Shown here: positions 14,413 to 61,491 of the stretch, one piece after another
Position numbering within the stretch: the stretch's first letter is position 1
Layout: every line of letters begins with the position of its first letter
Source of the DNA: Bacteroidota bacterium
GTDB lineage: Bacteria > Bacteroidota > Ignavibacteria > OLB7
Reading direction: 5' to 3'
Length of the DNA stretch: 64,000 nt
Assembly: GCA_048498995.1 (NCBI GenBank)
Contig: JBEHWX010000015.1
Location: 617-64,616, forward strand
Made by a program: the position numbers and the translations under genes
The notes under the pieces: model-generated
Database searches by the model: none
What the model saw: the letters and a program-made list of their open reading frames with translations, nothing else
What the model was told of the DNA's origin: nothing

Positions 14413-14413
14413 C

Positions 14414-19774: not shown

Positions 19775-19858
19775 GGCTTCGATGAAGCTGTACGCGGGAG
19801 GGCTAGAGTGCAATCGAACTCAACGGAAGGCTGGGGGAAACCTGACCCGGTAATGGAA

Positions 19859-23836: not shown

Positions 23837-24562
23837 ATGAGACGCCTCCTTCCGCTGTTGACGGCGGCCCTTCTGTTCCTGATGTCGAATCGCGGCCAAG
23901 CACAAAGCCCGCCATGTCCCGATCCCGACTTCGCCCTGGATCCGATCCGCACGCCTGGTCCCGCTTGGACACATCATCGTGACTCACTCGATTTCGGTAC
24001 CGGCTGCATGGTGGTCGTGGACTGGTGCGATCAATGAGTTTGCCGCGGCCTCGCCGGATTGTCGAGATGTCGCGTCTCGATCTCGCAGATCGTGTACCTC
24101 GGTGGCTGCGCGACGATCCCGGATTTCCCCACGCAGGCCTTTGTGGACAGTTGTCTCGGTGAGGTCATCAGGGCACTTTACGACAACGGGAAGATTCCGC
24201 GCGACAGGCCGCCGAAACCTTGCTCCGACCCGACGGACGACGATCACTTCTATGAAACGATTACCACGAGCTGCGTGCGACAGTATGCGTGGACCGGAAC
24301 CGTCAATGGCGCCGCGGTCTCATCGCAAGGACTCGTCTTCTGCAAGTCGCAGGCCGCCTGTCTCAGAAAGTGGAAGGTATGCACTGATTCCGACGGCATC
24401 CCTCGGTGCATGCTGGATGGCACCTTTCCACTCGGTGGTGACGGATGCACGGAGACGTCGGTCGATTCTCCGTACGTGATGAACGGCGTATACGACGGGC
24501 TGAACCTGACCATACTGAACAGGGCTCAGGGGCATGCGTGTGCGCCCACGTGCCAGCCATGA
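23837..24562 (+). CDS. Cys-rich secreted protein with in-frame TGA at 24035-24037 (candidate selenoprotein, C-D-Q-U motif, or disrupted gene)
   Basis: Signal peptide MRRLLPLLTAALLFLMSNRGQAQS. The ORF reads ...VVVDWCDQ-TGA-VCRGLAGLSRC... in the same frame. The downstream 167-aa segment has coding-like codon bias, many Cys, and no ATG start (only TTG) or signal peptide of its own. Confidence 0.4.
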
Positions 24563-24713
24563 CAGACGATTGGTGCGCGGTCGCCCACGGTTCTGATGCA
24601 CAATTCTCCCGAACAGAATACCAGGACAATTCCGCCAGGCTGGAGCTCGGCGCCGGCCGGTCGAAGTCTCGGCTGGAACACCCGCCGCATGTCCGTTCCC
24701 GGAATCGAAACCC

Positions 24714-27275: not shown

Positions 27276-28059
27276 CTTCTCGAATCATGTCGATGAACCG
27301 ATCCGGCCATCTCCTTGCGAGCTGCCGGAAGTCGTCCATCCGGAGTCACTGCGTGCACATGGTGCCGGTGAACGGTCCCGGCCCTCATGAAGACAGGCCG
27401 ATCTTCTGGCGAGATGTGGTGAAGACCGGAGGCCGGCTCCACGTGGATTCGGTCACTCTGATCCCGAGCGAATCCACGGACCAGCCACGCGACTCGCACG
27501 CGGAGTCGCCGCTTCACACTTCCAAGCGGCACACCTCTTCTCGTCTCTCCTTTCCGCGTTGACCATTGTATCGCACCCGATTCATCGATTCTTTCACGGG
27601 CCCGAGCGTCGAGCGGACTCGATTACCGGCGCCATCCCTCCGAGAGTCTCACATTCCTCAGTGCATGTGAGATGGCATCATCGTCGGCACCATGTCAGGG
27701 CACCAGGGTTATCGGAATCGATCAGAGCATATGCCCGACGCTCCATCGCCGACGTCTCCTGAAGCGAAAGCTCCGTGATGAGCCACCATGTGCATGATAT
27801 TCCGCGCGCGATGTCGACACTTCACATGTATCGCACCGATGCCAGGCCGATGTCGGCACTTCCATCCCGCATTCATCAACGCTCGATCCGAAGCACTTGA
27901 TCCGCACAAATGGTTGCAATAACGGAAAACGATATGCCGTCCGCCAGTACTTACTCTCCCGTTGTCGTGATCGCCCGGTTACAGGACAGATTCCAGATTC
28001 CGTACAGCACGTCATCACCCTCACGCTCGATTCCACGCCATATTCGGCGATTTCACCCC

Positions 28060-28800
28060 ATGGCATGGTCCTTTTAGCATTCCCCGTCAGTACACGAATT
28101 CAACTGAACTTCAAACACGAATACTCATTCTCAACGGGACCAACGTCATGAACATCCGCACCTTCGCCTTCGCCGCCCTCGCCATCGTCGCCGCTCCGAT
28201 CGTCTCGATGGCCCAGTCGGCCTCGGTGACCTCCACGGCCACGATCGTTACCCCGATCACCGCGACCGCCACCGCTCCGCTGGCCTTCGGCACCATCTCC
28301 AAGGGCGCCACCGCCACGGTGAGCGCCGGATCGACCTCGGCCGGCGCGGTGACCTTCTCGGGCGACGAGTCGGACAACATCACGGTCTCGGTGCCGACGA
28401 CGGCCACGATCTCGACGACCTCCGGCGCCGGTGGCAGCATGACCGTGACGCTCGACCGAGCCGGTCTGCGCTACACGCCGCTCGGGAACATCACCTCGAA
28501 CGGTGCCGCGGTGGTCGATGCCTCCAGCGGCTCGGCGACGGTGGCCCTGAGCATGGACAACCAGGGTGACGCCGTCAACAGCGATGGCCTCGGTCAGGCC
28601 TACATCTGGATCGGCGGCTCGGTGAGCCCCTCGGCCACGCAGCAGCGCGGCAGCTACAGCGGAACCTTCACCGTCTCGGCCGCCTACTCCAACTAACTTC
28701 CACGGCAACCAGCCGATATGAACATGTGGTGATGAGAGCTCCCGTCGTCGCGCTTACCATGCGGCCGGCATGAATGACGCGCCGGCGGGACACTCTCAAA
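28060..28800 (+). repeat. Segmental direct repeat, unit 1 (DUF4402 gene plus flanks); partner at ~37530..38330
   Basis: Upstream gtacacgaattcaac...aacacgaa.actc.t.ctcaacgggaccaac...catgaac and downstream ga.gtgaagatgtggtg.tgagag.tcccg.tgtcgcgc...cactctcaa are shared between the two loci. Confidence 0.7.
28148..28696 (+). CDS. DUF4402-like secreted Thr/Ser/Ala-rich beta-sandwich protein (copy 1)
   Basis: Signal peptide AAPIVSMA-QSA, then a mature region ending ...QQRGSYSGTFTVSAAYSN. About 90% identical to the gene at 37617..38159, including ~100 bp upstream and ~150 bp downstream flanks. Confidence 0.7.
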   Translation: MNIRTFAFAALAIVAAPIVSMAQSASVTSTATIVTPITATATAPLAFGTISKGATATVSAGSTSAGAVTFSGDESDNITVSVPTTATISTTSGAGGSMTVTLDRAGLRYTPLGNITSNGAAVVDASSGSATVALSMDNQGDAVNSDGLGQAYIWIGGSVSPSATQQRGSYSGTFTVSAAYSN

Positions 28801-29318
28801 CCTTTCGACCGACATACGAGCGCTCCCCCCGCGGCGGCAGGCTTTCCGGCCTGTCGCCGTTTTCATTGCATAAAGGCCGCTCCCGTTGTTCAGCCGGCGC
28901 GGCGCCCGGACGGTAGTTGGGCGCCAGGCGTGGATTTCCGGCCACCGCCCTCGGAATCCGCTCCTCGCCGGGCACCCGGAACCATGTGGGTACACGAACT
29001 GGGACTCGCAACCGCTTTCCCGGCGCGATACATTTGCCACCGTCCACGGAATGCTTCACGGTCACACCGACGCCGATGGCCGGCGAAACCAGCTCGCGCC
29101 CGCGCGAGCCGGAGCCGGGCCGCGCGCCCGATATCGGAAGCTCTGAACCGACCGCCACCAGGGTCGGTTCCATGACGAGCCGATGCCTGACGGCATCGGC
29201 CGCCATCTCCGCCCACGCCGATCGCGCCGGAAAGCGCGAAGTGCAGACGTACTCCCCCCGTCTGTCTGCTTCAGATCATCGCTACCTCTCCCGCCGTTCC
29301 CATTCAGCAGGTACCGCA

Positions 29319-30524
29319 ATGACCGAGGTTGCCGACGATTACGCGCCCGAGCTCCTGATCGCACGCATCATGAAGCGGATCCGACGCCCCCACTTCCATC
29401 ATCCAGTCGAGCCGGACTGGAATCCGCGGGTGCCGGTCATGTATTACGAGGAAACCTGCGTCGCCGGCATCCCCTTCGACGTGCCGATGGTGATTCTCCG
29501 CACCGCTCCCTGCCGGTGGTTCGTCGCCGGAGGATGCGTCATGTGCAACTACGAGCTCGTCGAGGCGCGCCATCAGGAGATCACCGCCGATGACATCCTG
29601 GCGCAGGTCGACCACGCCATCGAGCGCCTTGCGCCGCTGAACCGCTACGACTATCTGTTCATCACCTCCGGCGGCTCGTTCCTCGACGACGCCGAGGTTC
29701 CCTCCGACGTTCGCCTGGAAATTCTCCGGCGCCTGCGCGCCGCGGGCCTCCGCCGCGTCTCGTTCGAGAGCGAGGCCAAATACTGTCTGCGGCGCGACCG
29801 GCTGGAAGCGATCGCCCAGATATTCCCCGGCTCGGCGTCGGTCGGCATCGGCTACGAATCATCGGATCCGTTCATCCGGAACGTCGTGATCAACAAGGGG
29901 CTCGCGCAGGGAACGTTCAATCGCGCCGTGGCCAATCTCGCCGAAGCCGGCATTGGATTCTATACCTATGTGCTCCTCGGCAAGCCGTTTCTCACCCCGG
30001 CCGAGGATGAGGAAGATTGCATCGCCACCATCGTCGCCGCGCAGCGCGCCGGCGCGTTCATGACCGTCATCGAGGCCGTCAATATCCAGCCGTACACGCT
30101 CACCGAATGGCTCTGGCGGCACGGACGATATCAGCCACCATCGCTCTGGAGCGCGGTCGACATTCTGCGAAAGCTTCCGCGCGCCTACCGGCAACGGACA
30201 TCGGTCAAGGGATTCGAATCCGACGAGGGAGTGCCGGCGCCGTTCGCGCTGCCGTCGACCTGCCCCGAGTGCACGCCACGCCTCGTGGAGATGCTCAACG
30301 CATGGAACCGCGCGCGCGATCACGATCTGATCGAGCGGGCCCGGCGGGAGTGCGCATGCCACCTAGAATACGAGAGGGCCCGCGCCATTCCGGCGCCGGA
30401 TCCGATCCCGCGGCGGGTGATCGCCGAGCTCCGGGCCATCGACCGCGAGCTCGACGACCTTCCACACGAACCAGTTTCCATCACGCTCGACCATCCCATT
30501 CACGGATTACAGGAGCTGCCATGA
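29319..30524 (+). CDS. Radical-SAM-like enzyme with atypical Cx7Cx2C cluster (TIGR01210/ELP3-like architecture)
   Basis: Start at MTEVADDYAPELL (29319) within a longer ORF. Motif RTAPCRWFVAGGCVMCNY, then FITSGGSFLDD and TIM-barrel-like SAM-binding segments. Its stop overlaps the next gene's ATG (ATGA). Confidence 0.6.
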   Translation: MTEVADDYAPELLIARIMKRIRRPHFHHPVEPDWNPRVPVMYYEETCVAGIPFDVPMVILRTAPCRWFVAGGCVMCNYELVEARHQEITADDILAQVDHAIERLAPLNRYDYLFITSGGSFLDDAEVPSDVRLEILRRLRAAGLRRVSFESEAKYCLRRDRLEAIAQIFPGSASVGIGYESSDPFIRNVVINKGLAQGTFNRAVANLAEAGIGFYTYVLLGKPFLTPAEDEEDCIATIVAAQRAGAFMTVIEAVNIQPYTLTEWLWRHGRYQPPSLWSAVDILRKLPRAYRQRTSVKGFESDEGVPAPFALPSTCPECTPRLVEMLNAWNRARDHDLIERARRECACHLEYERARAIPAPDPIPRRVIAELRAIDRELDDLPHEPVSITLDHPIHGLQELP

Positions 30525-30859
30525 AGTACCTCGTTCTCAAGCGCTACAAAACGGTTCCTCCGGAGCTGAACGCCCAACAGATGCTGGAGATCCAGCTCGA
30601 AGAGATGCGCTACCTGGCGCGGCTGCGCGATGAAGGGCGCATCGCGAAAGTCTGGCGCGTGCCGGGTGGCCCCGGCGAAAGCGTCTGGCTGCTGAACGAC
30701 GCGACGCACGAGGATATCGACACCATGATCAATCAGATGCCCGATTATCCCTACTTCATTTTCGACATCAGGATCATCCCGCTCAGCTCGCTCAGCGTCG
30801 TGGAATCCACCGTCAGAAAAATGCTGGAAGATCAGCGCTCGGTGGCGGCAACGAACTGA
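30521..30859 (+). CDS. Muconolactone delta-isomerase-like small protein (MLI fold), copy 1
   Basis: 112 aa, MKYLVLKRYKTV...GRIAKVWRVPGGPGESVWLLNDATHEDIDTMINQMPDYPYFIFDIRIIPLSSL fits the MLI-family pattern. Real start at 30521, not the long Arg-rich ORF from 30017. Confidence 0.65.
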   Translation: MKYLVLKRYKTVPPELNAQQMLEIQLEEMRYLARLRDEGRIAKVWRVPGGPGESVWLLNDATHEDIDTMINQMPDYPYFIFDIRIIPLSSLSVVESTVRKMLEDQRSVAATN

Positions 30860-30912
30860 GGCGCGACCGGTCGCACTTCTCAATTCCACTTACACTCACA
30901 TCGAGGTGTACG

Positions 30913-31248
30913 ATGAAGTATCTCATGCTCAAGGAAGACGGCGCCACTCCCTCGCTGACGCCGTCGGAGATGATGGAGACGCTGCTCGAGGAAATGGATG
31001 TCCTCAAGGAGCAGATTCGCAACGGTCAGATCGATGAGATCTACAAGATGGTCGGCCGTCCCGGCGGGGCGATGATCGTCAACGCCGATTCGCATGAAGG
31101 GTTGTTCCGCCGGATGACCCAGCTGCCGGAATACGGCCTCTCGATGTTCGAGATCGAGCTGTTCCCGCTGTCGGACCTCGACGAGGCGATCCGGGACGTG
31201 GAGCTGGCCTCCGCGCGCTTGAACGAATCACTTCAGCCAGCATCATAA
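30913..31248 (+). CDS. Muconolactone delta-isomerase-like small protein, copy 2 (tandem paralog)
   Basis: 111 aa, MKYLMLKEDGA...IYKMVGRPGGAMIVNADSHEGLFRRMTQLPEYGLSMFEIELFPLSDL is a paralog of the preceding gene. Confidence 0.65.
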   Translation: MKYLMLKEDGATPSLTPSEMMETLLEEMDVLKEQIRNGQIDEIYKMVGRPGGAMIVNADSHEGLFRRMTQLPEYGLSMFEIELFPLSDLDEAIRDVELASARLNESLQPAS

Positions 31249-31259
31249 GGAGAAGAGCA

Positions 31260-31706
31260 ATGCCATCTCAGGACGAGATCGCCACGATGCTGAACAGGAC
31301 CTATCCTCCGAATCTTCAGGATGGGGACGATCATCAGCAGATCGCGCGGAACCTGGGCGCTCAGTATGACTCGAACGCCACGATGATTCACCCGGATCAG
31401 AATCGCACCACGCAGGGACGAGACAATATCGTCTCCGACTTCGCGGCATGCTTCGACGCCATTCCGGATCTCGCGATGACGCACGCGGATTTCATCTTCA
31501 ACGAGGATGGAACCGTCGATACCAGCTGGGTCATCACCGGGACTCACCTCGGTGAGTATCAGGGGACGCCGCCGAGCGGCCAGCGGATCCGGATCACCGG
31601 AAACGAGAAATTCTACCTGAACTCGGACCAGTCGAGCATCCGCCGCCACGAGCTCTGGACATCGCTCGATTCCCAGGGCTGGAGCGGCGTGATCGTCGAC
31701 GGCTGA
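31260..31706 (+). CDS. SnoaL-like polyketide/ester cyclase family protein (NTF2-like fold)
   Basis: 148 aa; ...VDTSWVITGTHLGEYQGTPPSGQRIRITGNEKFYL... is the typical SnoaL-like/ester-cyclase signature. Confidence 0.6.
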   Translation: MPSQDEIATMLNRTYPPNLQDGDDHQQIARNLGAQYDSNATMIHPDQNRTTQGRDNIVSDFAACFDAIPDLAMTHADFIFNEDGTVDTSWVITGTHLGEYQGTPPSGQRIRITGNEKFYLNSDQSSIRRHELWTSLDSQGWSGVIVDG

Positions 31707-31892
31707 TCATCGACGTGACGCGCGGCCGCCAGGAGTCGCGAATATCCGGCCAGAGACGAGCCTCGCGTGGTGGCCCGTCGGCGGGAAGCGCATCGCCGAA
31801 CAACTATCGGATCGTATCTTCCCGGCCGGTCGAACGGACCTTCGACCCGGCCGGCCGGCCGGGAGGAATACTACATCTGCTGGTTGACCATC

Positions 31893-32768
31893 ATGTGGGA
31901 ACAGGATTTCACCCGCGCGCTGCGCGCCGGACATCTCGACACGGCGATCGACTCGCTCGACCGCCATACCGCGACGGAGCACGCCGGAACGCCTCCATCG
32001 GCCGTCAAGCGCAAGGCGCTGGCGCTCATCAGGGAGATGCTTCCGCGCGACACGTTCGCGACATGGGTTCCGAAGCTGCTGGCCTCCCCCTCGGCCACCG
32101 CGCGGGAGCTTGCCGCCGGCATGCTCGAGGTCGTCGCGGCCGAGGACGCCCGATCGATCCTTCCGGCGATGATCGGCATCGCCGATGACGACAACTGGGA
32201 GGTTCGCGAGACCGCGGCCGTGCTCTTCGCGCGTGTGCTGCTGGCCTCGTTCGACGCGAACCTGCCGCTGTTCCGGGAGCTGGCGCGGCATCCGTCGGTC
32301 AACGTGCGGCGCGCCGTCGTGGTCGGGGCCAAATACGTGGCGAAGGAGCGGAAGGCGAGCCACGCCGAGGCGCTCTTCTCGCTGATCGAGCCGCTGATGT
32401 CCGATCCGAACGAGTATATCCGGAAGAATCTCGGACCGTTCGCCATCGGCGATGGACTGCTCAGGTGCTTTCCGGCAATGGCGGTCGAGCGGTTGCAAAC
32501 ATGGTCCCGCTCGGACGACGAAGTGGTGCGGTGGAACGTGGCGATGGCGTTCTCGACCGCCGAGGCGAGGAAGCATCTCGACGTCGGCCTGCCGATTCTC
32601 GAGGAACTGGCCGGTGACGGCAGGCGCCTTGTGTGGCGCGCGGCGGCGGCGGCGTTGAAGAACCATGCGCGCAAGCTCCCCGAGCTGGTGCGCCCGACAC
32701 TCGAGAGGATGATGAGCGATCCGGCGCGACGGGCCGCGGCGGAAGTCGTCGAGAAGTACCTCGAGTGA
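31893..32768 (+). CDS. HEAT-repeat protein (DNA alkylation repair AlkC/AlkD-like)
   Basis: Start MWEQDF at 31893. Repeated helical HEAT-like units such as ...DDDNWEVRETAAVLFARVL... and ...DPNEYIRKNLGPFAIGD... Confidence 0.55.
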   Translation: MWEQDFTRALRAGHLDTAIDSLDRHTATEHAGTPPSAVKRKALALIREMLPRDTFATWVPKLLASPSATARELAAGMLEVVAAEDARSILPAMIGIADDDNWEVRETAAVLFARVLLASFDANLPLFRELARHPSVNVRRAVVVGAKYVAKERKASHAEALFSLIEPLMSDPNEYIRKNLGPFAIGDGLLRCFPAMAVERLQTWSRSDDEVVRWNVAMAFSTAEARKHLDVGLPILEELAGDGRRLVWRAAAAALKNHARKLPELVRPTLERMMSDPARRAAAEVVEKYLE

Positions 32769-32850
32769 TTCCGGAGCAGGTATCCCGCCGGATCGGCCGC
32801 GCGGCTCGTCGGGGATCACATCGCGGAGAGATCGACAATCGGCGCAGGAT

Positions 32851-33282
32851 ATGACCTATCACGGCATCAATCACGTCGGGCTGGTGGTGACCGACCTTTC
32901 CCGGTCGCAGGAGTTTTTCATCGGAGCCCTCGGACTCCGCCAGCATCCGAGACGAGCGACCTGGTTCATCGCCGGACGCTGCACGCTCCACCTGATCGAG
33001 ATCCCGGAGGCGGGCGAGGACCGATCCCTCTACCGTTTGGTGCAGCACGTGGCGCTGCAGGTCGATGAGCTGAACGACATGCTCGGACAGCTCCTCCACG
33101 CCGGCCTGGCCCCATTCCAGCTGGACTTCAAGGGGAACGAAATGCCGGTCGACGACCCGGCATCGCCGCTGGAGTTCGGCGTCGGGACGCTCTTCGTCCG
33201 CGATCCCGACGGCAACCTGATCGAGCTGATTCAGCTCGGTCGGGGAATCTTCACGGATGAACCTGATCCGTTCGCGGGGTAA
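32851..33282 (+). CDS. VOC family (glyoxalase/bleomycin-resistance/dioxygenase) protein
   Basis: MTYHGINHVGLVVTDLSRSQEFFIGALGL...HVALQVDEL...FVRDPDGNLIELIQ, a classic VOC beta-alpha-beta-beta-beta module. Confidence 0.8.
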   Translation: MTYHGINHVGLVVTDLSRSQEFFIGALGLRQHPRRATWFIAGRCTLHLIEIPEAGEDRSLYRLVQHVALQVDELNDMLGQLLHAGLAPFQLDFKGNEMPVDDPASPLEFGVGTLFVRDPDGNLIELIQLGRGIFTDEPDPFAG

Positions 33283-33329
33283 GGCTCTCGCGCGTCGGAA
33301 CGGAGCAACCGTGTCCAACCGGAGCAACG

Positions 33330-34124
33330 ATGAATCTGGGAATCACCGGCCGCGCGGCGCTGGTCACCGGCGCCGGAAGCGGCATCGGCAGGGCCGTGGC
33401 GCTCGCCCTGGCGCGCGAAGGAGCGCTCGTGATGCTCTGCGGGCGCAATCGGGAGCGGCTGGAGAGCACGGCGGCGGAGATCGCGCTCGCCGATGGCCGC
33501 TCCGGCATCGTCGTCGCCGACCTCACCTCGGAGGCCGGCTGCGCCGCGGCCGTGCGGGCAACCGTGGAGGAATTCGGCTCGATCGAGATGGTGGTCAACG
33601 CCGCCGGCGATCCCACCGCGTGCGGCACCCTCGATGTTCCGAGCGAGACATGGCGGAGGATCTTCGACAGCCTCTTCTTCAGCGCCGTGTTCCTCTGCCA
33701 GGCGGCGATAGCCCGGATGCGGAGCGGCGGCTGGGGACGCATCGTCAACATCGCCTCGAGCGCCGTGAAATCGCCGAGCGGCTCCGGTCCGTACGACGCG
33801 GCGAAGGCGGCGCTGGTCGCCTTCACGAAGGATCTCGCCACGGAAGTCACCGCGGAGGGGATCCTGGTCAACGCCGTCTCCCCCGGCTCCACGCTGACGC
33901 CGCTCTGGACCGGCCAGGGGCGCATCGGCGATCAGCTCGCGGCGGAATTCGGCATCGATCGCGCCGCGCTTCTCGACGGCATCGCCGAGCGCATCCCGCT
34001 GAAGCGGATGGCCGAGCCGTCCGAGATCGCCGACGTCATCCTCTTTCTCCTGTCGGAGAAGGCCAGCTACGTGTCGGGAACGACCGTCTACGTCGACGGT
34101 GGAGCGGTCACCACGCCGTTCTGA
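33330..34124 (+). CDS. SDR family oxidoreductase
   Basis: ALVTGAGSGIGRAVALALAREGA, NAAG, S...YDAAKAAL catalytic triad region, PGSTLTP. Confidence 0.85.
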   Translation: MNLGITGRAALVTGAGSGIGRAVALALAREGALVMLCGRNRERLESTAAEIALADGRSGIVVADLTSEAGCAAAVRATVEEFGSIEMVVNAAGDPTACGTLDVPSETWRRIFDSLFFSAVFLCQAAIARMRSGGWGRIVNIASSAVKSPSGSGPYDAAKAALVAFTKDLATEVTAEGILVNAVSPGSTLTPLWTGQGRIGDQLAAEFGIDRAALLDGIAERIPLKRMAEPSEIADVILFLLSEKASYVSGTTVYVDGGAVTTPF

Positions 34125-34396
34125 TCCCGACCTGATTCCCCCGCCATCCCCGGAGGGAAACGGACCGGAGGCTCATCGCCCCGGCCCACGACGCGCGCGG
34201 CGTCCACCGCGCCGAGAGATCGGGATCTCCCCCCCACGCGCATCCACTTCCGAACGCGCCCGAGCCTGGTCCGCGCCGGCGCGCCGGCCATCGACATCAT
34301 CGAACAACAACGCACAGGTTCCCCGTATGCCGCTGTGGCCAAGTCCGCATTTGCCGCTGGTTCCGCGCGCAGCGGGATCACTCAACGACACCAGCC

Positions 34397-34822
34397 ATGT
34401 CCAGCACCAGTCACTCACCGCGGGGACCGATCTACGAGGTGGTCTCCGGGCAGATCCTGCTGTCGCGACGTCAGGATTTCTTCCGCCTCCACAAGGGGAC
34501 GCTGCTCCCGATCATGCGGGAGATAGGCATCCGCCCGATCGTGCTGCTGTTCACCGAGGTCGGGCGATACGGACGATTTCTGGATATCTACGAATACGAG
34601 GATTTCGCCGACTACCAGGAGAAGACCGATCGACTTCTGGCGCATGAGCGGATGGAATCCTATTACGCCGAGGTCGGCACGTGCGTCGACGGATCGATCA
34701 TGGTCGAGCTGATGCGGGATCTTCCCTATGCACCACAATGGAAGGAGCATGAACATGTGGTCCGGACGAATTCACTATCTGACCGGCGGCACGACACGTC
34801 TGCCACGCGTGATATCCTATGA
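34397..34822 (+). CDS. NIPSNAP/Dabb-like dimeric alpha+beta barrel protein
   Basis: IYEVVSGQILLSRRQDFFRLHKGTLLPIMREIGIRPIVLLFTEVGRYGRFLDIYEYEDFADYQE... The 3' end overlaps the next gene, so the true stop/start relationship is uncertain. Confidence 0.45.
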   Translation: MSSTSHSPRGPIYEVVSGQILLSRRQDFFRLHKGTLLPIMREIGIRPIVLLFTEVGRYGRFLDIYEYEDFADYQEKTDRLLAHERMESYYAEVGTCVDGSIMVELMRDLPYAPQWKEHEHVVRTNSLSDRRHDTSATRDIL

Positions 34823-35894
34823 CGCGCGGCGGTGGGCACGCTCGGTCGGCGTTACCCGCGACGTGCTCGCCGCTCACGGCGTGGATGCCACGTCGAGAAT
34901 CGCGATCTGCCACCCGTTCGCGCCGTGGGCCATCGGAATGGTCTTCGCGGAGGCGGCGCTCCAGTGCGGCGCGTCGGTGTATCCGCTCGGACTCTACGCG
35001 GGGCAGCCGAGCTTCCGCCACCTGCTCACGAACATCGCGCCGACGCATCTCTGCGCCACCGCGAGAAACCTCATCACCTGGGCGGAAGGAGCCGGTCCCA
35101 TCACGTCCGCCAGCGGGCATGACGGGAACGGCGACCATGCGCTCGAACCGCTCCTCCAGGGGGACGCAAACGGCAACGGACATCACCCCACGCGGCGCAG
35201 AGTCGCGTTCGTCGCCGGCGAAATGCTTACCGAGGCCAACCGCGTTGCCTGCGCGGAGGCCTGGAGCGCCGATGTGGTGAATGTCTACGGCATGGCCGAG
35301 CTCGATACCGTCGCCGCTGAGCTGCCGGGCGTGGAGGGACTTGTGCTGACCCCGACGCTCGAGGCGGGGATCCTGACGGATGGGAGCATTGCCGCTCCGA
35401 CGGTCGGCCTGCGCGGGGGGCTCATGCTGCGGGATCGCGCCGACGGACGCTGGTACCGCACCGGCGATCTGGTGAGCGTCACCGGGCGCACCTCCCCGGA
35501 CGCATCATGGCCGTCGAGCTGGATCATCGAGGTCCTCGGACGTCAGGAGGAAACCGTCACTCTCTCCGACGGAACGATGATCGGCTCCGACCACATCAGG
35601 CACATCACCGAGTCCCGGCCGGAGGTGACGCGCGTCCAGCTCGTGGTCCGGCGCACGCTGCGCGGCGACGAGATCGAGATCCGCTGCGTGCTCACCGACG
35701 CATGCGCCGACGCGCCGCTGGAGATCGTTCCGTTGTTTCTGGAAAGCAGCATCGACATCGCCGACAGTCACCGTCACGGCGTGATCGTCTCCGTTACCGC
35801 CATCGCGACCAGCGAGGCGGAGCTCGTGACCACGCCGCGTGGCAAAATCCCAACATTCGTCGAGGAGGAGCTCCATGTCCATCACCTCGCTTGA
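34728..35894 (+). CDS. Adenylate-forming enzyme, PaaK / coenzyme F390 synthetase-like (ANL superfamily)
   Basis: P-loop-like YLTGGTTRLPRV near the N-terminus and C-terminal adenylation-like segments. Possible starts at 34728, 34749 or 34755. The 3' end overlaps the HemN-like gene by 20 nt. Confidence 0.5.
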   Translation: MHHNGRSMNMWSGRIHYLTGGTTRLPRVISYDARRWARSVGVTRDVLAAHGVDATSRIAICHPFAPWAIGMVFAEAALQCGASVYPLGLYAGQPSFRHLLTNIAPTHLCATARNLITWAEGAGPITSASGHDGNGDHALEPLLQGDANGNGHHPTRRRVAFVAGEMLTEANRVACAEAWSADVVNVYGMAELDTVAAELPGVEGLVLTPTLEAGILTDGSIAAPTVGLRGGLMLRDRADGRWYRTGDLVSVTGRTSPDASWPSSWIIEVLGRQEETVTLSDGTMIGSDHIRHITESRPEVTRVQLVVRRTLRGDEIEIRCVLTDACADAPLEIVPLFLESSIDIADSHRHGVIVSVTAIATSEAELVTTPRGKIPTFVEEELHVHHLA

Positions 35895-37233
35895 GCAGTT
35901 CACGGCGCATCAGCTCTTTCCGGAGCGTGAGAGCACCTACATCCGCTGGTATCCGAAAACGCTGACGCCGACAGACGGCGTGGAGCCGGCATTCCCGCGC
36001 GAGCCGGATCCGGAGGGGATCTACATCCATGTGCCCTTCTGCGACCGTCTCTGTCTGTTTTGTCCGTTCAACAAGCGGCAGACGCGACCGGACCTTCTGC
36101 GAAAATTCCTGCTGGGGCTCCGCGCGGAGATACGATTGTACGCGCAGTTGTGCGGGGTGAGCCGGCCGCTCCGGTTCATCTATTTCGGCGGGGGGACGCC
36201 GTCGGTGCTCACCTCCGGCATCCTCACGAACATCCTCGGCGAGATAGCCTCCTGGTTTCCGCTGGCCGACGATCTGGAGGTGACGCTCGAATCGCATCCG
36301 ACGCACCTGACGCCGTCGTACGTGCATCGCGTGCGTGAGGCGGGAATCACCCGGATCAGCAGCGGCGTTCAAGGGTTCGACGACCGGCTTCTGCAGCGTA
36401 TCGGCGCGCAGCATCACGCGGCCGACTCCCACAGGGCCATCGAGAGCGTCGCCGGCGAGCTCGGCGGCATCGCCATCGACCTCCTGTTCCGCTGCCCGGG
36501 ACAGTCGCTTGCCGACTGGCAGCGACAGCTCGAGATCGCGATCGGACTTCCCGGCGTCAGCCACGTCAGCTGCTACAGTCTCGTGCTCGAGGCCTCCGCC
36601 GCGCAGCCGGATCCCCATGTGGACGCCGAGATGACGCTCGCGGCGCATCGGATGCTGGAGGCGGCGGGATTCGCGCACTACGCGTCGTGCGCAAGCGGAG
36701 GGTTCGACTTCGCCCGGCCGGGAATGAAGTGCGCCTACGAGGAGCGGCACTGGGGCGCTCCGCAGTCGGAGTTTCTCGGCCTGGGTCCCGGCGCGCTCGG
36801 CTTCGTCGGTGGCGCGGCAACGGTCAACGGCCTCTCGGTCGATCGCTACGAGCAGCGGCTCGCACGCGGGAGATTTCCGCTGGTCTCCGTTACCGGCATG
36901 TCGGTCGAGGAGGAGATGCGTCGCTACTTCGTGCTCGGCGTCAAGACGCTGCGGGTGCCGTTCGCGCCGTTTCGCGCGCGCTACGGCGTGGAGCCGCGGA
37001 CGCTCTTCGCGCCGGAGATCGAGCGACTGGCCGCCTGGGGCTTCGCCGACGTCCATGACGACGAGCTGGTACTCACCGAGCTCGGCAGGCTCTTCGTCGA
37101 CTCGGTGAGCGAAGTGTTCTTCAGCCGCGAGGAGCGGAATGTGCCGCATCCCGAGGAGCCGGAGATACGCGCCATCGAGTCAGGCATCGGACGCGGGATG
37201 GAGATAGCCTCCCCGGTAGGCATCGACCTGTGA
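35875..37233 (+). CDS. Radical SAM enzyme, HemN/HemW-like (oxygen-independent coproporphyrinogen oxidase-like family)
   Basis: IYIHVPFCDRLCLFCPF (CxxxCxxC), IYFGGGTPSVL, and an HemN C-terminal-like domain. Start ATG at 35875. Confidence 0.8.
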   Translation: MSITSLEQFTAHQLFPERESTYIRWYPKTLTPTDGVEPAFPREPDPEGIYIHVPFCDRLCLFCPFNKRQTRPDLLRKFLLGLRAEIRLYAQLCGVSRPLRFIYFGGGTPSVLTSGILTNILGEIASWFPLADDLEVTLESHPTHLTPSYVHRVREAGITRISSGVQGFDDRLLQRIGAQHHAADSHRAIESVAGELGGIAIDLLFRCPGQSLADWQRQLEIAIGLPGVSHVSCYSLVLEASAAQPDPHVDAEMTLAAHRMLEAAGFAHYASCASGGFDFARPGMKCAYEERHWGAPQSEFLGLGPGALGFVGGAATVNGLSVDRYEQRLARGRFPLVSVTGMSVEEEMRRYFVLGVKTLRVPFAPFRARYGVEPRTLFAPEIERLAAWGFADVHDDELVLTELGRLFVDSVSEVFFSREERNVPHPEEPEIRAIESGIGRGMEIASPVGIDL

Positions 37234-37616
37234 CGGCATCGGGCCCGGACATCACCGTTGAGCGATGTCCGGGCCCATCGGCCTCTGCGTTGCGCTTTCG
37301 CGATACGGCCCACACCCTTCACCCCGCCTCTCCTTCCGATCCCCTGGCCCCACCTCCTCGACGCTACCGCGACGAGCACCGTCGTCCATCCACGGCGGCG
37401 CGGATCTCGTGCTCACGCCATCTCGCGCAAGCCTCCTCTGTCCGGAATTCGGATCGTGTCCAGGATCACGACAGCTCGCGTAATCACCAATCGACGATTT
37501 CAGGAAGATTCGAAGGATTTGATCGCATGGCATGATCCTATTAGCGAGGGTTTGTGTACGCGAATTCAACGGGACTACAAAACACGAACACTCGATACTC
37601 AACGGGACCAACTGAC

Positions 37617-38159
37617 ATGAACAAGCAGATCTTCACCCTCGCCGCTCTGGCCATCGTCGCCGCTCCGATCGCCACGATGGCCCAGTCGGCCTCGGTTACC
37701 TCCACGGCCACCATCGTTACCCCGATCACCGCGACCGCCACCGCTCCGCTGGCCTTCGGTACCATCAGCAAGGGCTCGGCCGCCACGGTTGCGGCCAACA
37801 GCTCCTCGGCCGGCGCGGTGACCTTCTCGGGCGACGAGGCCGACAACATCACGATCTCGGTGCCGGCCACGGCCACCATCTCGACCACGTCGGGTGCCGG
37901 CGCCAGCATGACGGTGACCCTGAACCGCGCGGCGCTGCGCGTGGGGACCACGAGCGCTCAGGCCTCCTCCTCGGCGCTCGACGCCTCGAGCGGCTCGGCC
38001 ACGACGGCTCTGTCGGCTGACGGCTCGGGCGACGGTGTTGCCAACGACGGTCTCGGGCAGTCCTACCTCTGGATCGGTGGCTCGGTGACGCCGACGGCCA
38101 CGCAGCAGCGCGGCAGCTACAGCGGCACCTTCACCGTCTCGGCCGCCTACTCCAACTAA
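37617..38159 (+). CDS. DUF4402-like secreted Thr/Ser/Ala-rich protein (copy 2)
   Basis: MNKQIFTLAALAIVAAPIATMAQSASVTSTATIVTPITATATAPLAFGTISKG..., ending QQRGSYSGTFTVSAAYSN. Paralog of 28148..28696. Confidence 0.7.
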   Translation: MNKQIFTLAALAIVAAPIATMAQSASVTSTATIVTPITATATAPLAFGTISKGSAATVAANSSSAGAVTFSGDEADNITISVPATATISTTSGAGASMTVTLNRAALRVGTTSAQASSSALDASSGSATTALSADGSGDGVANDGLGQSYLWIGGSVTPTATQQRGSYSGTFTVSAAYSN

Positions 38160-38603
38160 GTTTCAACGCGCCGGGCGCTTGAGCGCCGCGCGGAATCGAA
38201 AATCGACAGACGCCAAGTGAATGCTTCGAACTGATGTGAAGATGTGGTGGTGAGAGATCCCGCTGTCGCGCGGCCGCGTGGGTTCGGCATGCTTTGGCGC
38301 CGGCGGCGGGTGACTCTCAACCGATGATGATCCGCATGATCGTTCTCCCGCGGCGGCGCGCCGGTCTGACTGACGCGCCGCCGTTTTCTTTCGAGTGCCA
38401 GGTATCCGCACGACGTCAGCGGGCGCTCTCCGGCCACAACCTGGGCGGCCACGGAAGGCCGACCCGCGCGACATTCGCCTTCGCCGCTTCAACGTCAGGC
38501 TCCATGGAATCGGGACAAGAAATGCGTACCATGCCCACGTCATGAACAGAGCCTAGCTCAGCACCCCAGGAGCACCTGGTCCCACGATTTCAGGAGCCTC
38601 GAC

Positions 38604-39662
38604 ATGATACCGCGCACATTCTCCCGCCGCGTTTCTCGAGGAGTCACCGCCTCGCTGCTGCTCATTATCGGCGTAACGCTCGCGCCGCGAAACTGCCGTG
38701 GTGGATTGCAGGATCTGCCCGGAACGCTTCGCGCGCTGCGTGGCCCCGTGGCGCGCGTCGAGTTCGATGACACGATACTATTCAACACCTACTGGGATCC
38801 GGCGAACATCCAACGTGAGAATCTCGCGAGCGTGTCATTCGATCGCACGGGAGTTCCAACCGGATGGACCACCCGCTTTCTCGGCAACACCGGCGTCAAG
38901 TTCTGGCGTGACGCATGCCGCCGCATCGTCCGCCTGCGTCTGGTCACCGTGCTTGAATTGGGATCACGGAATCGTTTCGGAGAGTTGATCGAGAGTGGGC
39001 AGGGAACGAAGACCACTACGACCGCCTCCAGCATCCGATATGCTCCGGATGGCGATTCCGCGTGGATCGAGACGACGAACCGTGAGGTCGAACGGGACAT
39101 GTCGGGGCATCGAACGGAGAACGTCGAGCTGCTTTCGGCACGCATCCATGCCGCCCCCGACGGCAGCAGACTCGATATTCTCCGCCGGTATCCGGACACC
39201 GATTACATGATCACGTCCGAGCACGAAGGCAACCGGATCAGCGAGGTTCATGCAACTCCGGACACCACGCGTGTCCTGTCACGATCCAGCCGCACACTCG
39301 ACTCCACCGGCGCCGTCATCGAGGAATGCTATTATTCCCGCGGGCGAACGCAACTGACCTCGTACATCAACGACTCGCTCGGGAATCCGGTGGTTGTCCG
39401 CTACGATTGGCTGGACGCTCCATGGCCTCCCCGCATTACCCACATATCGTATCGATACGACCACTATGGAAACTGGATCGAGCGGACCGAACACTCAACG
39501 GGATTTCAGATGAGCAGGCATGGAATCGTCCATGTGGAATCCGCGTATCGCAACCGGCGGAGCATTACCTACTATGAGCCGCGATCGGCGCCCGACTATG
39601 CCCAGGCCGCGCACGAGCCATTGCTCGCGGCGGTGCTGAACGAGCTCTATTTCTTTCCCTGA
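38604..39662 (+). CDS. Hypothetical secreted protein
   Basis: 352 aa with an N-terminal hydrophobic segment and no recognisable domain. Lower GC than neighbours. Followed by a strong bidirectional terminator hairpin. Confidence 0.5.
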   Translation: MIPRTFSRRVSRGVTASLLLIIGVTLAPRNCRGGLQDLPGTLRALRGPVARVEFDDTILFNTYWDPANIQRENLASVSFDRTGVPTGWTTRFLGNTGVKFWRDACRRIVRLRLVTVLELGSRNRFGELIESGQGTKTTTTASSIRYAPDGDSAWIETTNREVERDMSGHRTENVELLSARIHAAPDGSRLDILRRYPDTDYMITSEHEGNRISEVHATPDTTRVLSRSSRTLDSTGAVIEECYYSRGRTQLTSYINDSLGNPVVVRYDWLDAPWPPRITHISYRYDHYGNWIERTEHSTGFQMSRHGIVHVESAYRNRRSITYYEPRSAPDYAQAAHEPLLAAVLNELYFFP

Positions 39663-39678
39663 TCCACACCAAACGCAA

Positions 39679-39717
39679 ACGGGGCCGCGCGGCATGCACC
39701 GCGCGGCCCCGTCGTTT
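39679..39717. terminator. Bidirectional intrinsic terminator (14 bp GC stem + T-run) between convergent genes
   Basis: acggggccgcgcgg-catgca-ccgcgcggccccgt followed by cgtttc. The complement carries gtttgcgttt on the other side. Confidence 0.6.
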
Positions 39718-39746
39718 CATGATCCGTCGAGCGCCAAGCCGAAGCC

Positions 39747-57079: not shown

Positions 57080-57141
57080 GTGGAAGTGTCATTGCGTGGT
57101 CCGCGCACGATGGAGGAGCGCCAACGGACTCGTCCAGCATC

Positions 57142-59385: not shown

Positions 59386-59424
59386 ATATCCGAAATGCCG
59401 GCATCGAAATAATCGAGGCTCACG

Positions 59425-60028: not shown

Positions 60029-60031
60029 ACA

Positions 60032-61423: not shown

Positions 61424-61491
61424 GGAGCAGCTCCGTCACATTGAGTTGGATGGGACCAACAAGCTTAGACGGCCACGTCTCAATGGAATGA

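What the first reader, a model, noticed from the sequence alone, without database searches (positions are those of the whole stretch)
28060..38330. ~9.5 kb island bracketed by direct-repeat DUF4402-like genes, carrying two radical-SAM enzymes, tandem MLI-like proteins and tailoring enzymes
Two ~90% identical DUF4402-like secreted-protein genes, with conserved upstream and downstream flanks, sit as direct repeats on either side of a compact co-directional block. The block runs radical SAM (atypical Cx7Cx2C) -> two muconolactone-isomerase-like small proteins (the first coupled by ATGA) -> SnoaL-like cyclase -> HEAT-repeat protein -> VOC -> SDR -> NIPSNAP/Dabb-like -> PaaK/F390-synthetase-like adenylating enzyme -> HemN-like radical SAM. 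I do not recognise this combination as a described pathway. It looks like a small-molecule (aromatic/polyketide-like) or peptide-modifying cassette. The flanking repeats make it a candidate unit for recombination-mediated excision or duplication.
Basis: partly seen in the sequence, partly recalled or inferred. Interest (0 to 1): 0.75.

Follow-up and report, generated by a model that had tools for sequence, protein, structure and literature searches.

The report
Rare orphan two-radical-SAM gene cassette
A ten-gene block in a Kapabacteria-like genome contains a very rare five-gene core (two radical-SAM enzymes, an aryl-acid-activating ligase and small barrel proteins). That core recurs in unrelated bacteria, usually next to mobile or defence genes, and matched nothing in the literature and model libraries I searched; it most likely makes an unknown small molecule.

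Summary
The copies are 76-78% identical as protein and 80-89% as DNA, not about 90%. Each copy is a complete gene with its own terminator.

The main result comes from comparison with other loci. Five functions recur together in about 12 loci from Bacillota, Alphaproteobacteria, a Planctomycetota MAG (rSAM1 homologue only, neighbourhood not examined) and metagenomes:
- a RaSEA/queuine-lyase-like radical-SAM enzyme;
- a double muconolactone-isomerase-like protein, split into two genes here;
- a NIPSNAP-like protein;
- a PaaK-like ligase;
- a HemN-like class-C radical-SAM enzyme.

None of those loci has DUF4402. Many sit beside transposases, recombinases or defence-type genes. The family is extremely rare: 37 cluster representatives among 1.84 billion. 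Variable partners are VOC, an AlkD2-like HEAT protein, FGE-sulfatase, MFS, futalosine (Mqn) genes, SnoaL and SDR.

A relative has ABC transporter, one EI24 gene, then SecA, where this genome carries 16.5 kb. The whole 23.2-39.7 kb stretch is therefore variable.

Best reading (about 0.45): a horizontally spread biosynthetic cassette that makes a C1-modified metabolite derived from an aromatic acid. Defence, nucleic-acid and catabolic readings remain open. There is no evidence for repeat-mediated excision.

The parts
23198..39746 (.). Variable region between SecA and the ABC transporter. It is replaced by a single EI24 gene in relative L020 and by different genes in L019.
28148..28696 (+). DUF4402 secreted-protein gene, copy 1 (182 aa, signal peptide). 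Conserved upstream stretch from about 28050.
28831..28860 (+). Terminator hairpin of DUF4402 copy 1 (13-bp stem followed by a T run)
   Evidence: z-score -3.4
29319..30524 (+). rSAM1: RaSEA/queuine-lyase-like radical-SAM enzyme (401 aa). It has a Cx7Cx2C motif and an invariant C-terminal CxxC...CxC. Core component.
   Evidence: TIGR01210, E = 3e-49, below cutoff; 6p78, E = 8e-11
30521..30859 (+). MIase-like protein 1 (112 aa), coupled to rSAM1 by an ATGA overlap. It is one half of the split equivalent of the fused double-domain ('DD') core protein.
30913..31248 (+). MIase-like protein 2 (111 aa), 35% identical to protein 1
31260..31706 (+). SnoaL-like protein (148 aa). Accessory; shared only with L008.
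31893..32768 (+). HEAT-repeat protein of the AlkD/AlkD2 (Pfam DNA_alkylation) type. Accessory; also present in Shouchella, L013 and L018.
32851..33282 (+). Single-domain VOC/glyoxalase-fold protein. Recurrent accessory (Azospirillum, L016, L017, L018).
33330..34124 (+). Short-chain dehydrogenase/reductase (264 aa). Accessory; seen only in this locus.
34397..34822 (+). NIPSNAP-like small alpha+beta-barrel protein. It is the most conserved core component (55-70% identity across phyla). Here it carries a C-terminal extension of about 24 aa that overlaps the next gene.
34755..35894 (+). PaaK-like ANL adenylating ligase (about 379 aa). All adenylation motifs are present, and it has a 23-aa insertion unique to this locus. 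Core component.
35875..37233 (+). HemN-like class-C radical-SAM enzyme (CxxxCxxC plus HemN_C domain, no fourth Cys). Core component.
37617..38159 (+). DUF4402 secreted-protein gene, copy 2 (180 aa). Conserved upstream stretch from about 37520.
38350..38384 (+). Terminator hairpin of DUF4402 copy 2
   Evidence: z-score -3.9

Best explanation
The block is a horizontally acquired biosynthetic cassette for an unknown specialised small molecule.

Its conserved engine has five functions:
1. rSAM1, a radical-SAM enzyme of the RaSEA/queuine-lyase clade. By analogy it is likely a radical C-N lyase or rearranging enzyme that makes or releases a precursor.
2. A PaaK-like ligase that activates an aromatic or aryl-alkyl carboxylic acid as the acyl-adenylate.
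3. A HemN-like class-C radical-SAM enzyme that transfers a SAM-derived C1 unit (methyl or cyclopropane) onto an sp2 carbon of that scaffold.
4. A NIPSNAP-like protein.
5. A double MIase-like protein.
The last two are alpha+beta-barrel proteins that probably act as cofactor-free isomerases, cyclases or oxygenases, or as binders of intermediates.

In this genome SnoaL and SDR add tailoring steps. The VOC and the AlkD2-like HEAT protein may be further tailoring enzymes or self-protection.

Shown here: the gene content, family assignments, conserved catalytic motifs, cross-phylum conservation, rarity, and location in a variable region. Inferred: every catalytic role and the nature of the product.

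The two DUF4402 genes are host surface or secreted-protein paralogues on either side of the cassette. They are not part of it.
For: The core travels together.
- tblastn of the window proteins finds rSAM1, NIPSNAP-like, ligase and HemN-like genes together in Shouchella clausii, Azospirillum brasilense, Rhizobium alvei and about 8 metagenomic loci.
- A homologous 227-262 aa two-domain protein is present in most of them. Its N-terminal half matches Pfam MIase (30.3 bits against 26.7). It aligns with the window's MIase-like protein 1 at hhalign probability 89%.

The enzymes look catalytically competent.
- Cx7Cx2C is conserved in rSAM1.
- The ligase keeps the P-loop, YGxAExD, TGD, GRxD and terminal RGK motifs.
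- The HemN-like protein has CxxxCxxC plus the HemN_C domain.

The substrate class is suggested by the ligase.
- Its profile best matches phenylacetate-CoA ligase (E = 5e-13), then coronafacate ligase, AjiA1 and 4-chlorobenzoate ligase.

A dedicated precursor supply appears in two loci.
- L013 and L018 embed MqnA/C/D/E-type genes (futalosine route to 1,4-dihydroxy-6-naphthoate) and an AdoMet decarboxylase within the cassette.
- Class-C radical-SAM enzymes are known to C-methylate naphthoquinones and other sp2 carbons (PMC10114718).

The accessories are typical of secondary metabolism.
- SnoaL, SDR, VOC, MFS, a GerE regulator and a nitroreductase occur around the core.
- The NIPSNAP model has the same fold as ABM monooxygenases and polyketide cyclases.

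The cassette is rare and patchy.
- The NIPSNAP-like family has 37 representatives among 1.84 billion.
- One of 185,579 species genomes matched the rSAM1 patterns.
- The region lies in a stretch absent from a close relative.
Against: - No scaffold-building enzyme (PKS, NRPS, terpene synthase or prenyltransferase) and no carrier protein are in the window cassette, so the starting material is unknown.
- FGE-sulfatase and HEAT proteins alternate next to rSAM1. Both can also be read as binding or sensor domains.
- Many related loci sit among defence-type genes.
- Solitary periplasmic binding proteins (called in Azospirillum; inferred by position in Rhizobium) and an MFS gene in Shouchella could mean uptake and catabolism rather than export.
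- Fold search places rSAM1 only in the generic radical-SAM barrel, so it says nothing about the substrate.
- No product, transcript or phenotype data exist.
Confidence: 0.45

Rival explanations
1. Conflict or defence system. The cassette either modifies nucleic acid or makes an anti-phage nucleoside- or base-like or DNA-reactive compound. In this reading the HEAT (AlkD2-like, DNA-binding) or FGE-sulfatase protein acts as the nucleic-acid or invader-binding component.
For: - The nearest characterised relatives of rSAM1 both act on 7-deazaguanine derivatives: RaSEA (TIGR01210, E = 3e-49) and queuine lyase (6p78, E = 8e-11).
- The HEAT protein matches Pfam DNA_alkylation (50.6 bits) and PDB AlkD2 (E = 5e-5).
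- Related loci lie beside Abi_2/HEPN genes, a QueC-like gene with an M78/HTH regulator, HEPN_LA2681 with an SMC-like ATPase, an AAA_15/21 ATPase, TROVE/vWA genes, a Tn7-like element, IS elements and serine recombinases.
Against: - No PADLOC model hits any of the ten proteins, apart from one marginal HEAT match.
- The core has no TGT/DpdA-type base-exchange enzyme, nuclease or other obvious effector.
- The ligase resembles aryl-acid ligases.
- Futalosine-pathway genes in two loci point to a quinone or aromatic precursor.
- The Shouchella, L016 and window contexts are not defence islands (window).
Confidence: 0.2
2. Catabolic or salvage pathway. The cassette takes up and activates an aromatic acid, or a tetrapyrrole such as haem (ChuW-like ring chemistry), and degrades it under low oxygen using radical-SAM enzymes and barrel-fold isomerases.
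For: - PaaK-type ligases and muconolactone isomerase are classic aromatic-catabolism families.
- The HemN-like protein scores nearly as well against ChuW/HutW (E = 1.3e-48) as against HemW.
- The NIPSNAP model also resembles IsdG-type haem oxygenases.
- A periplasmic binding protein in Azospirillum, a 405-aa ORF at the same position in Rhizobium that was never scanned, and an MFS gene in Shouchella could mean import.
- The VOC fold includes ring-cleaving dioxygenases.
Against: - Extreme rarity and patchy spread on mobile DNA are unusual for a nutrient pathway.
- Two loci carry dedicated futalosine biosynthesis genes, which is the opposite direction to catabolism.
- No downstream beta-oxidation or thiolase-type genes, CoA-handling enzymes or haem receptors are present.
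- All equivalog cutoffs for ChuW, HemN, HemW, PaaK and MIase are missed by wide margins.
Confidence: 0.15
3. Peptide or protein modification (RiPP-like). One of the small proteins (MIase-like or NIPSNAP-like) would be the substrate, modified by the two radical-SAM enzymes and activated by the ligase.
For: - Two radical-SAM enzymes sit next to several small ORFs.
- The NIPSNAP-like protein is the most conserved component and is translationally overlapped with the ligase.
Against: - The small proteins are well-folded barrel domains: pLDDT is 97-98 over the core of the NIPSNAP-like protein.
- Their conserved residues are spread through the fold, as in enzymes, and there is no variable core peptide.
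- The calls made here show no protease, leader-recognition element or hypervariable C-terminus.
- The ligase resembles aryl-acid ligases, not peptide-activating enzymes.
Confidence: 0.07
4. One reading: the DUF4402 direct repeats define a unit that excises or duplicates by homologous recombination.
For: - About 0.85-kb direct repeats at 80-89% DNA identity bracket the cassette.
- The locus is variable among relatives.
Against: - The copies are diverged (76-78% protein identity), with few long identical tracts.
- Each copy is a complete gene with its own terminator.
- No related cassette elsewhere is flanked by DUF4402.
- No recombinase is present.
- The relative L020 lacks the DUF4402 genes as well, so there is no 'single-copy empty site' to compare.
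Confidence: 0.12

Closest known systems
RaSEA (archaeosine synthase beta-subunit, TIGR01210) and queuine lyase (PDB 6p78)
   Same: rSAM1 shares the radical-SAM core and the unusual cluster-binding region with them. TIGR01210 scores E = 3e-49 over 298 residues. A profile of the rSAM1 family hits queuine lyase at E = 8e-11.
   Different: - The score is below the equivalog cutoff (167.8 against 212 bits).
- The host is bacterial, with no ArcS/TGT partner in any locus.
- rSAM1 has an N-terminal helix and an invariant C-terminal CxxC...CxC.
- It is always linked to ligase, HemN-like and barrel-protein genes, never to queuosine or archaeosine genes.
Class-C radical-SAM methyltransferases and cyclopropanases (NosN/NocN, YtkT/C10P, Jaw5, MqnK/MenK, ChuW)
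   Same: - The HemN-like fold, with CxxxCxxC and a HemN_C domain.
- The best solved match is NocN (E = 4e-24), then HemN.
- In nosiheptide biosynthesis (from my own knowledge of that pathway), a radical-SAM lyase, an adenylating enzyme and a class-C enzyme cooperate on an aromatic acid. That is the same logic proposed here.
- AlkD-type HEAT proteins accompany YtkT/C10P as resistance genes (also from my own knowledge of those clusters).
   Different: - No equivalog cutoff is reached.
- The surrounding genes share nothing else with the thiopeptide, CC-1065/yatakemycin, jawsamycin or menaquinone loci.
- There is no carrier protein, NRPS or PKS.
- The HEAT protein matches AlkD2 only weakly, and its catalytic residues were not tested.
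Phenylacetate-CoA ligase (PaaK) and PaaK-like amide or ester ligases (Cfl, AjiA1, BagE/FevW)
   Same: ANL adenylation motifs are present, and PaaK is the best profile match (E = 5e-13).
   Different: - The protein is about 90 residues shorter at the N-terminus than PaaK.
- PaaK equivalog models are missed (16.6 against 700 bits).
- The acceptor (CoA, amine, hydroxyl or protein) is unknown.
Muconolactone isomerase, NIPSNAP and ABM dimeric alpha+beta-barrel proteins
   Same: - Pfam MIase and NIPSNAP are matched above their cutoffs.
- The predicted NIPSNAP-like structure superposes on NIPSNAP proteins, ActVA-Orf6, LsrG and IsdG.
   Different: - The MIase equivalog is missed (33 against 130.6 bits).
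- The NIPSNAP-like protein belongs to a tight subfamily of its own: 37 representatives, 55-70% identical.
- Elsewhere the MIase-like unit is a fused two-domain protein.

Membership tests
Radical SAM superfamily (rSAM1) | Three-cysteine [4Fe-4S] motif in a partial TIM barrel | tested here: met
   Cx7Cx2C is conserved in all full-length homologues. The AF2 model (pLDDT 90) superposes on Elp3, TsrM and AprD4. Pfam Radical_SAM alone scores below its cutoff (21.7 against 29.5).
RaSEA (TIGR01210 equivalog) | Score at or above the curated cutoff | tested here: not met
   167.8 bits against a cutoff of 212.15.
RaSEA (TIGR01210 equivalog) | ArcS/TGT partner and a 7-deazaguanine context | tested here: not met
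   No such gene lies in the window cassette or beside rSAM1 in any related locus.
HemN (oxygen-independent coproporphyrinogen oxidase) | CxxxCxxCxC motif and score at or above the cutoff | tested here: not met
   The sequence reads C-DRL-C-LF-C-PF, with no fourth Cys. TIGR00538 scores 122.6 against 324.95.
Class-C radical-SAM (HemN-like) enzymes | CxxxCxxC core plus the HemN_C domain | tested here: met
   Radical_SAM 60.2 bits and HemN_C 30.2 bits. PDB matches NocN (E = 4e-24) and HemN (E = 4e-22).
Class-C radical-SAM (HemN-like) enzymes | C1 transfer from a second SAM to an sp2 carbon | not testable with these tools
   This needs an enzyme assay. The mechanism is taken from PMC10114718.
ANL adenylating enzymes, PaaK type | P-loop, YGxTE-like, (S/T)GD and GRxD motifs, and the catalytic C-terminal Lys | tested here: met
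   All are invariant or conserved in 9 homologues. The profile hits PaaK at E = 5e-13.
PaaK (phenylacetate-CoA ligase equivalog) | Curated score cutoff | tested here: not met
   NF041878 scores 16.6 against 700 bits.
Muconolactone delta-isomerase | Pfam domain score, and separately the equivalog score | tested here: inconclusive
   Pfam MIase is met (41.8 and 28.8 against 26.7). The TIGR03221 equivalog is not met (33.3 and 19.1 against 130.6). The fold family is therefore supported, but the enzyme identity is not.
AlkD-type HEAT-like-repeat DNA glycosylases | Pfam DNA_alkylation domain | tested here: met
   50.6 bits against a cutoff of 21. PDB AlkD2 matches at E = 5e-5.
AlkD-type HEAT-like-repeat DNA glycosylases | Catalytic Trp/Asp/Trp residues and DNA binding | not tested
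   No alignment to AlkD itself was obtained. The only PDB hits, AlkD2 and its homologues, are not established glycosylases.
Known anti-phage defence systems (PADLOC-DB v2) | Match to any system component model | tested here: not met
   There are no hits for 9 of 10 proteins. The only hit is a marginal HEAT match, E = 7e-4.
Excisable genomic island | Integrase, recombinase or transposase, and attachment-type flanking repeats | tested here: not met
   No such gene lies in 23.2-39.7 kb. The flanking repeats are whole diverged genes. Otherwise there is only a 12-nt direct match of borderline significance.
RiPP cluster | Short precursor with a variable core, plus a recognition or protease component | tested here: not met
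   The small ORFs are conserved folded domains. No peptidase or recognition-domain hits were found.

The most novel reading that the evidence does not exclude
The five-gene core is a new kind of mobile 'chemical conflict' module. It would make a C1-modified, DNA-reactive or nucleobase-like compound (or directly modify nucleic acid) that blocks phages or competitors. The AlkD2-like HEAT and VOC proteins would protect the producer, and the FGE-sulfatase or HEAT partner of rSAM1 would give target recognition. That would add a two-radical-SAM pathway to the small set of metabolite-based defence systems.
Probability: 0.15. Interest if true: 0.85.

Novelty: new variant of a known kind. Interest (0 to 1): 0.52.

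Why it matters
Every enzyme superfamily in the cassette is known, but the combination is apparently undescribed. It is conserved from Bacillota to Alphaproteobacteria and Kapabacteria, and it is among the rarest conserved gene sets one can find: tens of copies in about 15 billion proteins.

If characterised, it would give a first function to a bacterial branch of the RaSEA/queuine-lyase radical-SAM clade, to a new class-C radical-SAM enzyme, and to a distinct NIPSNAP subfamily. It would probably also give a new natural product or cofactor.

Culturable carriers exist (Shouchella clausii, Azospirillum brasilense, Rhizobium alvei), so this is directly testable. The DUF4402 'bracket', by contrast, is an ordinary paralogous gene pair in a variable locus.

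Tried and rejected
- **Known defence system:** the PADLOC scan of all ten proteins was negative.
- **Regulatory or structural RNA, or a tRNA integration site:** Rfam and ARAGORN found nothing in the 64-kb window.
- **Literature:** full-text searches for TIGR01210, RaSEA+HemN, NIPSNAP+radical SAM, HemN-like+AlkD and DUF4402 returned nothing relevant. Only a general HemN-like review was useful.
- **Plasmid- or phage-borne cassette:**
  - There is no NIPSNAP-like hit in 72,556 plasmids.
  - rSAM1 gave only 25-26% identical radical-SAM hits there.
  - Those distant relatives sit in unrelated contexts.
- **Substrate clue from the rSAM1 fold:** Foldseek gave only generic radical-SAM barrels.
- **Attachment sites or target-site duplications at the cassette edges:** there is only one 12-nt direct match (29188 and 37231), with p about 0.05-0.1, and no inverted repeats.
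- **Foreign base composition:** GC of the cassette (0.654) equals that of the genome (0.646). GC3 is only slightly lower than in core genes.
- **RiPP reading:** rejected, because the small proteins are conserved folded domains.
- **True RaSEA, HemN, HemW, ChuW, PaaK or MIase identities:** all miss their curated cutoffs.
- **MIase-like protein 2 as the second half of the fused DD protein:** the profile comparison was weak (probability 29%) and aligned to the N-terminal half. The split-versus-fused correspondence is therefore only supported for the N-terminal domain.

Full report
**1. Checking the observation**

The window has about 65% G+C. Repeat finding and alignment confirm two direct repeats, at 28147-28702 and 37616-38165, about 9.47 kb apart. 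Each contains a gene that matches Pfam DUF4402 above the gathering score.

The similarity starts about 100 bp upstream of each ATG. It runs through the gene and continues about 170 bp downstream, with a 55-nt insertion after copy 2. Identity is 80-89% by DNA segment but only 76-78% at the protein level, with 40 non-synonymous and 34 synonymous codon differences over 180 aligned codons. 'About 90%' is therefore an overstatement.

The conserved downstream flank contains a strong GC-rich hairpin followed by a T run after each copy:
- 28831-28860, -27.4 kcal/mol, z-score -3.4;
- about 38350-38384, -35 kcal/mol, z-score -3.9.

The repeated unit is thus a complete, independently terminated gene. Only two copies occur in the window.

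**2. The genes between the repeats**

| Gene | Coordinates | Main evidence |
|---|---|---|
| rSAM1 | 29319-30524 | TIGR01210 (RaSEA) E = 3e-49, below the equivalog cutoff; a Cx7Cx2C motif conserved across the family |
| MIase-like 1 and 2 | 30521-30859, 30913-31248 | Pfam MIase above cutoff; the first overlaps rSAM1 by ATGA |
| SnoaL | 31260-31706 | Pfam SnoaL |
| HEAT | 31893-32768 | Also matches Pfam DNA_alkylation; PDB AlkD2 E = 5e-5 |
| VOC | 32851-33282 | Pfam Glyoxalase |
| SDR | 33330-34124 | Pfam adh_short |
| NIPSNAP-like | 34397-34822 | Pfam NIPSNAP |
| ANL ligase | 34755-35894 | Pfam AMP-binding |
| HemN-like | 35875-37233 | Radical_SAM plus HemN_C; CxxxCxxC without HemN's fourth Cys; best PDB hits NocN and HemN |

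No NCBIfam equivalog cutoff is reached for RaSEA, HemN, HemW, ChuW, PaaK or muconolactone isomerase.

**3. What comparison with other genomes shows**

*Rarity.* Homologues of rSAM1 are very scarce:
- 32 hits in a 5.8-billion-protein search;
- one locus among 185,579 species genomes;
- three in the metagenome scan.

The NIPSNAP-like protein is equally scarce. It gave 40 hits. An exhaustive HMMER search of 1.84 billion cluster representatives found only 37 with E <= 1e-3.

*The conserved core.* I compared gene neighbourhoods and ran tblastn of the window proteins against all fetched loci. The same core recurs in each of these:
- Shouchella clausii;
- Azospirillum brasilense;
- Rhizobium alvei;
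- several metagenomic contigs.

The core is rSAM1, the NIPSNAP-like protein (55-70% identical, the most conserved part), the PaaK-like ligase and the HemN-like enzyme.

Most loci also carry a 227-262 aa protein. These proteins form one family. Its N-terminal half matches Pfam MIase above cutoff and aligns with the window's MIase-like protein 1 (hhalign probability 89%). The match to protein 2 is weak.

I conclude that the window's two tandem MIase-like genes, also seen in its closest relative L008, are the split counterpart of a fused two-domain protein elsewhere. Only the N-terminal correspondence is well supported.

*Variable accessories:*
- HEAT/AlkD2-like: window, Shouchella, L013, L018.
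- VOC: window, Azospirillum, L016, L017, L018.
- FGE-sulfatase: called in Azospirillum, L011 (fused to the two-domain protein), L013 and L014; the 366-aa ORF after rSAM1 in Rhizobium (L007) is at the same position but was never scanned.
- MFS: Shouchella.
- Rhodanese: L014.
- Futalosine-type MqnA/C/D/E genes plus AdoMet decarboxylase: L013, L018.
- SnoaL: window, L008.
- SDR: window only.

*Exceptions and context.* L016 lacks rSAM1 within 10 kb. For L018 this could not be settled, because the locus ends inside the two-domain gene. None of these loci has DUF4402. Many are next to IS elements, serine recombinases, a Tn7-like element, or defence-type genes (Abi_2/HEPN, HEPN_LA2681 with an SMC-like ATPase, AAA_15/21).

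**4. The locus in its host**

The flanking housekeeping genes are most similar to those of Kapabacteria, Ignavibacteria and Chlorobi-group MAGs. The window also encodes type-IX-secretion components and cargo.

In a relative with a 78% identical ABC transporter (L020), the order is HrcA-GrpE-DnaJ-ABC-EI24-SecA-C25 peptidase. In the window, ABC and SecA are separated by 16.5 kb (23198-39746). That stretch holds two unknown genes, an 853-aa T9SS cargo protein, both DUF4402 genes, the cassette and an unknown 352-aa protein. Another relative (L019) has different genes at this position. The whole stretch is therefore a variable locus.

Features that would mark a mobile element are missing or weak:
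- There is no integrase or transposase in the stretch.
- G+C equals that of the genome, and GC3 is only slightly lower than in core genes.
- The only candidate junction repeat is a 12-nt direct match at 29188 and 37231, of borderline significance.

**5. How it most likely works**

*What the sequences show.*
- The ligase family keeps every ANL adenylation motif. As a profile it best matches phenylacetate-CoA ligase (E = 5e-13), followed by coronafacate ligase, AjiA1 and 4-chlorobenzoate ligase. This points to an aromatic or aryl-alkyl carboxylic acid substrate.
- Class-C radical-SAM enzymes transfer a SAM-derived C1 unit to sp2 carbons, giving methyl or cyclopropane groups. Their known substrates include naphthoquinones and indolic acids (PMC10114718).
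- Two related loci embed a full futalosine-type gene set, which makes a naphthoate. That would be an obvious ligase and C1-transfer substrate, and it is a sign of biosynthesis rather than degradation.
- The NIPSNAP-like model is confident (pLDDT 97-98 in the core). It has the fold of NIPSNAP proteins, ABM monooxygenases, LsrG, IsdG and polyketide cyclases.
- The only functionally known relatives of rSAM1 are RaSEA and queuine lyase. From my own knowledge, both cleave a C-N bond on a 7-deazaguanine side chain. Its predicted fold is otherwise a generic radical-SAM barrel.

*Proposed scheme (inferred, confidence about 0.45).*
1. rSAM1 generates or releases a precursor, together with its variable partner.
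2. The ligase activates the aromatic acid.
3. The HemN-like enzyme adds a C1 unit.
4. The barrel proteins, SnoaL and SDR tailor the product.
5. The VOC, the AlkD2-like HEAT protein and (elsewhere) the MFS transporter act in tailoring, self-protection or export.

**6. Rival readings**

- *Defence or nucleic-acid reading (about 0.2).* It is supported by the 7-deazaguanine relatives of rSAM1, by the DNA_alkylation-type HEAT protein and by the defence-island neighbourhoods. Against it stand the negative PADLOC scan, the lack of any base-exchange enzyme or effector, and the aryl-acid character of the ligase.
- *Catabolic or salvage reading (about 0.15).* It fits the PaaK, MIase and ChuW resemblances and the binding-protein and MFS genes. 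It fits poorly with the rarity, the mobility and the embedded biosynthetic Mqn genes.
- *RiPP-like reading (about 0.07).* It is unlikely, because the small proteins are conserved folded domains.
- *Repeat-mediated excision by the DUF4402 genes (about 0.12).* There is no positive evidence for it.

**7. Verdict**

The finding is real. Its family annotations are right, and the cassette matches nothing in the model libraries and papers I searched. The value lies in the conserved, cross-phylum, extremely rare five-gene core, not in the DUF4402 bracket.

I rate it a new variant of a known kind: an orphan radical-SAM biosynthetic cassette built from known superfamilies. Interest is moderate at 0.52. 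It would rise sharply if the product proved to be a new genotoxin, cofactor or anti-phage metabolite.

Noticed in passing
window 29188-29199 and 37231-37242: An exact 12-nt direct match, TGACGGCATCGG. One copy lies 131 nt upstream of the rSAM1 start and the other overlaps the HemN-like stop codon, so together they frame exactly the ten-gene cassette. About 0.05-0.1 such matches are expected by chance, so it could be a recombination scar or coincidence.
   Followed up: partly
window 23198-39746, compared with L020 8913-9822 and L019 5122-15121: The SecA-ABC transporter interval is a hotspot of gene-content variation among Kapabacteria-like relatives. It holds one EI24 gene in L020, an arylsulfotransferase and PD40 genes in L019, and 16.5 kb here.
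   Followed up: partly
window 34397-34822 / 34755-35894: The NIPSNAP-like ORF runs about 24 codons past the end seen in all homologues and overlaps the ligase gene by about 70 nt. The ligase itself has a 23-residue insertion (PITSASGHDGNGDHALEPLLQGD) found in no other locus.
   Followed up: partly
window 28861-29318 and 34125-34396: Two long non-coding gaps: about 450 nt before rSAM1 and 272 nt before the NIPSNAP-like gene. Neither has an Rfam match. They may be promoter or leader regions that split the block into two transcription units.
   Followed up: no
window 55721-62403 (minus strand): A lower-GC stretch (0.54-0.62) carries a tandem array of five BNR/Ycf48-like beta-propeller genes, most with T9SS C-terminal sorting domains. 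It looks like a paralogous cargo family expansion.
   Followed up: partly
window 2286-4601, 13300-19819, 24714-27275: Type-IX-secretion machinery and cargo: a PorZ-like propeller protein, a PorV-like (UPF0164) gene next to a 1801-aa C25 peptidase (PorU-like), and an 853-aa propeller protein with a Por_Secre_tail just upstream of DUF4402 copy 1.
   Followed up: partly
L014 11070-11318 and L018 17741-18001: A small protein of 82-86 aa with no Pfam match is shared (40% identity) by two otherwise different versions of the cassette, directly after the HemN-like or HEAT gene. It may be an additional accessory component.
   Followed up: no
L011 7797-9737: In this metagenomic version the FGE-sulfatase domain is fused to the double MIase-like protein in one 646-aa ORF. 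This suggests that these two components act together.
   Followed up: partly
L021 (Streptomyces sp. F8 plasmid pFRL5) 8791-18816: A distant (26% identical) relative of rSAM1 heads an operon with a P450, a serine hydroxymethyltransferase, a GT9 glycosyltransferase, a carbamoyltransferase and heptose-activating genes. It looks like a heptose-nucleoside-type antibiotic cluster and shows the wider clade is used in secondary metabolism.
   Followed up: no
L001 and L002 (GCA_048498215.1): In the public MAG that carries identical proteins, the cassette is broken across two short contigs, with a break inside the HEAT gene. Automated cluster mining of that assembly would therefore miss it.
   Followed up: no
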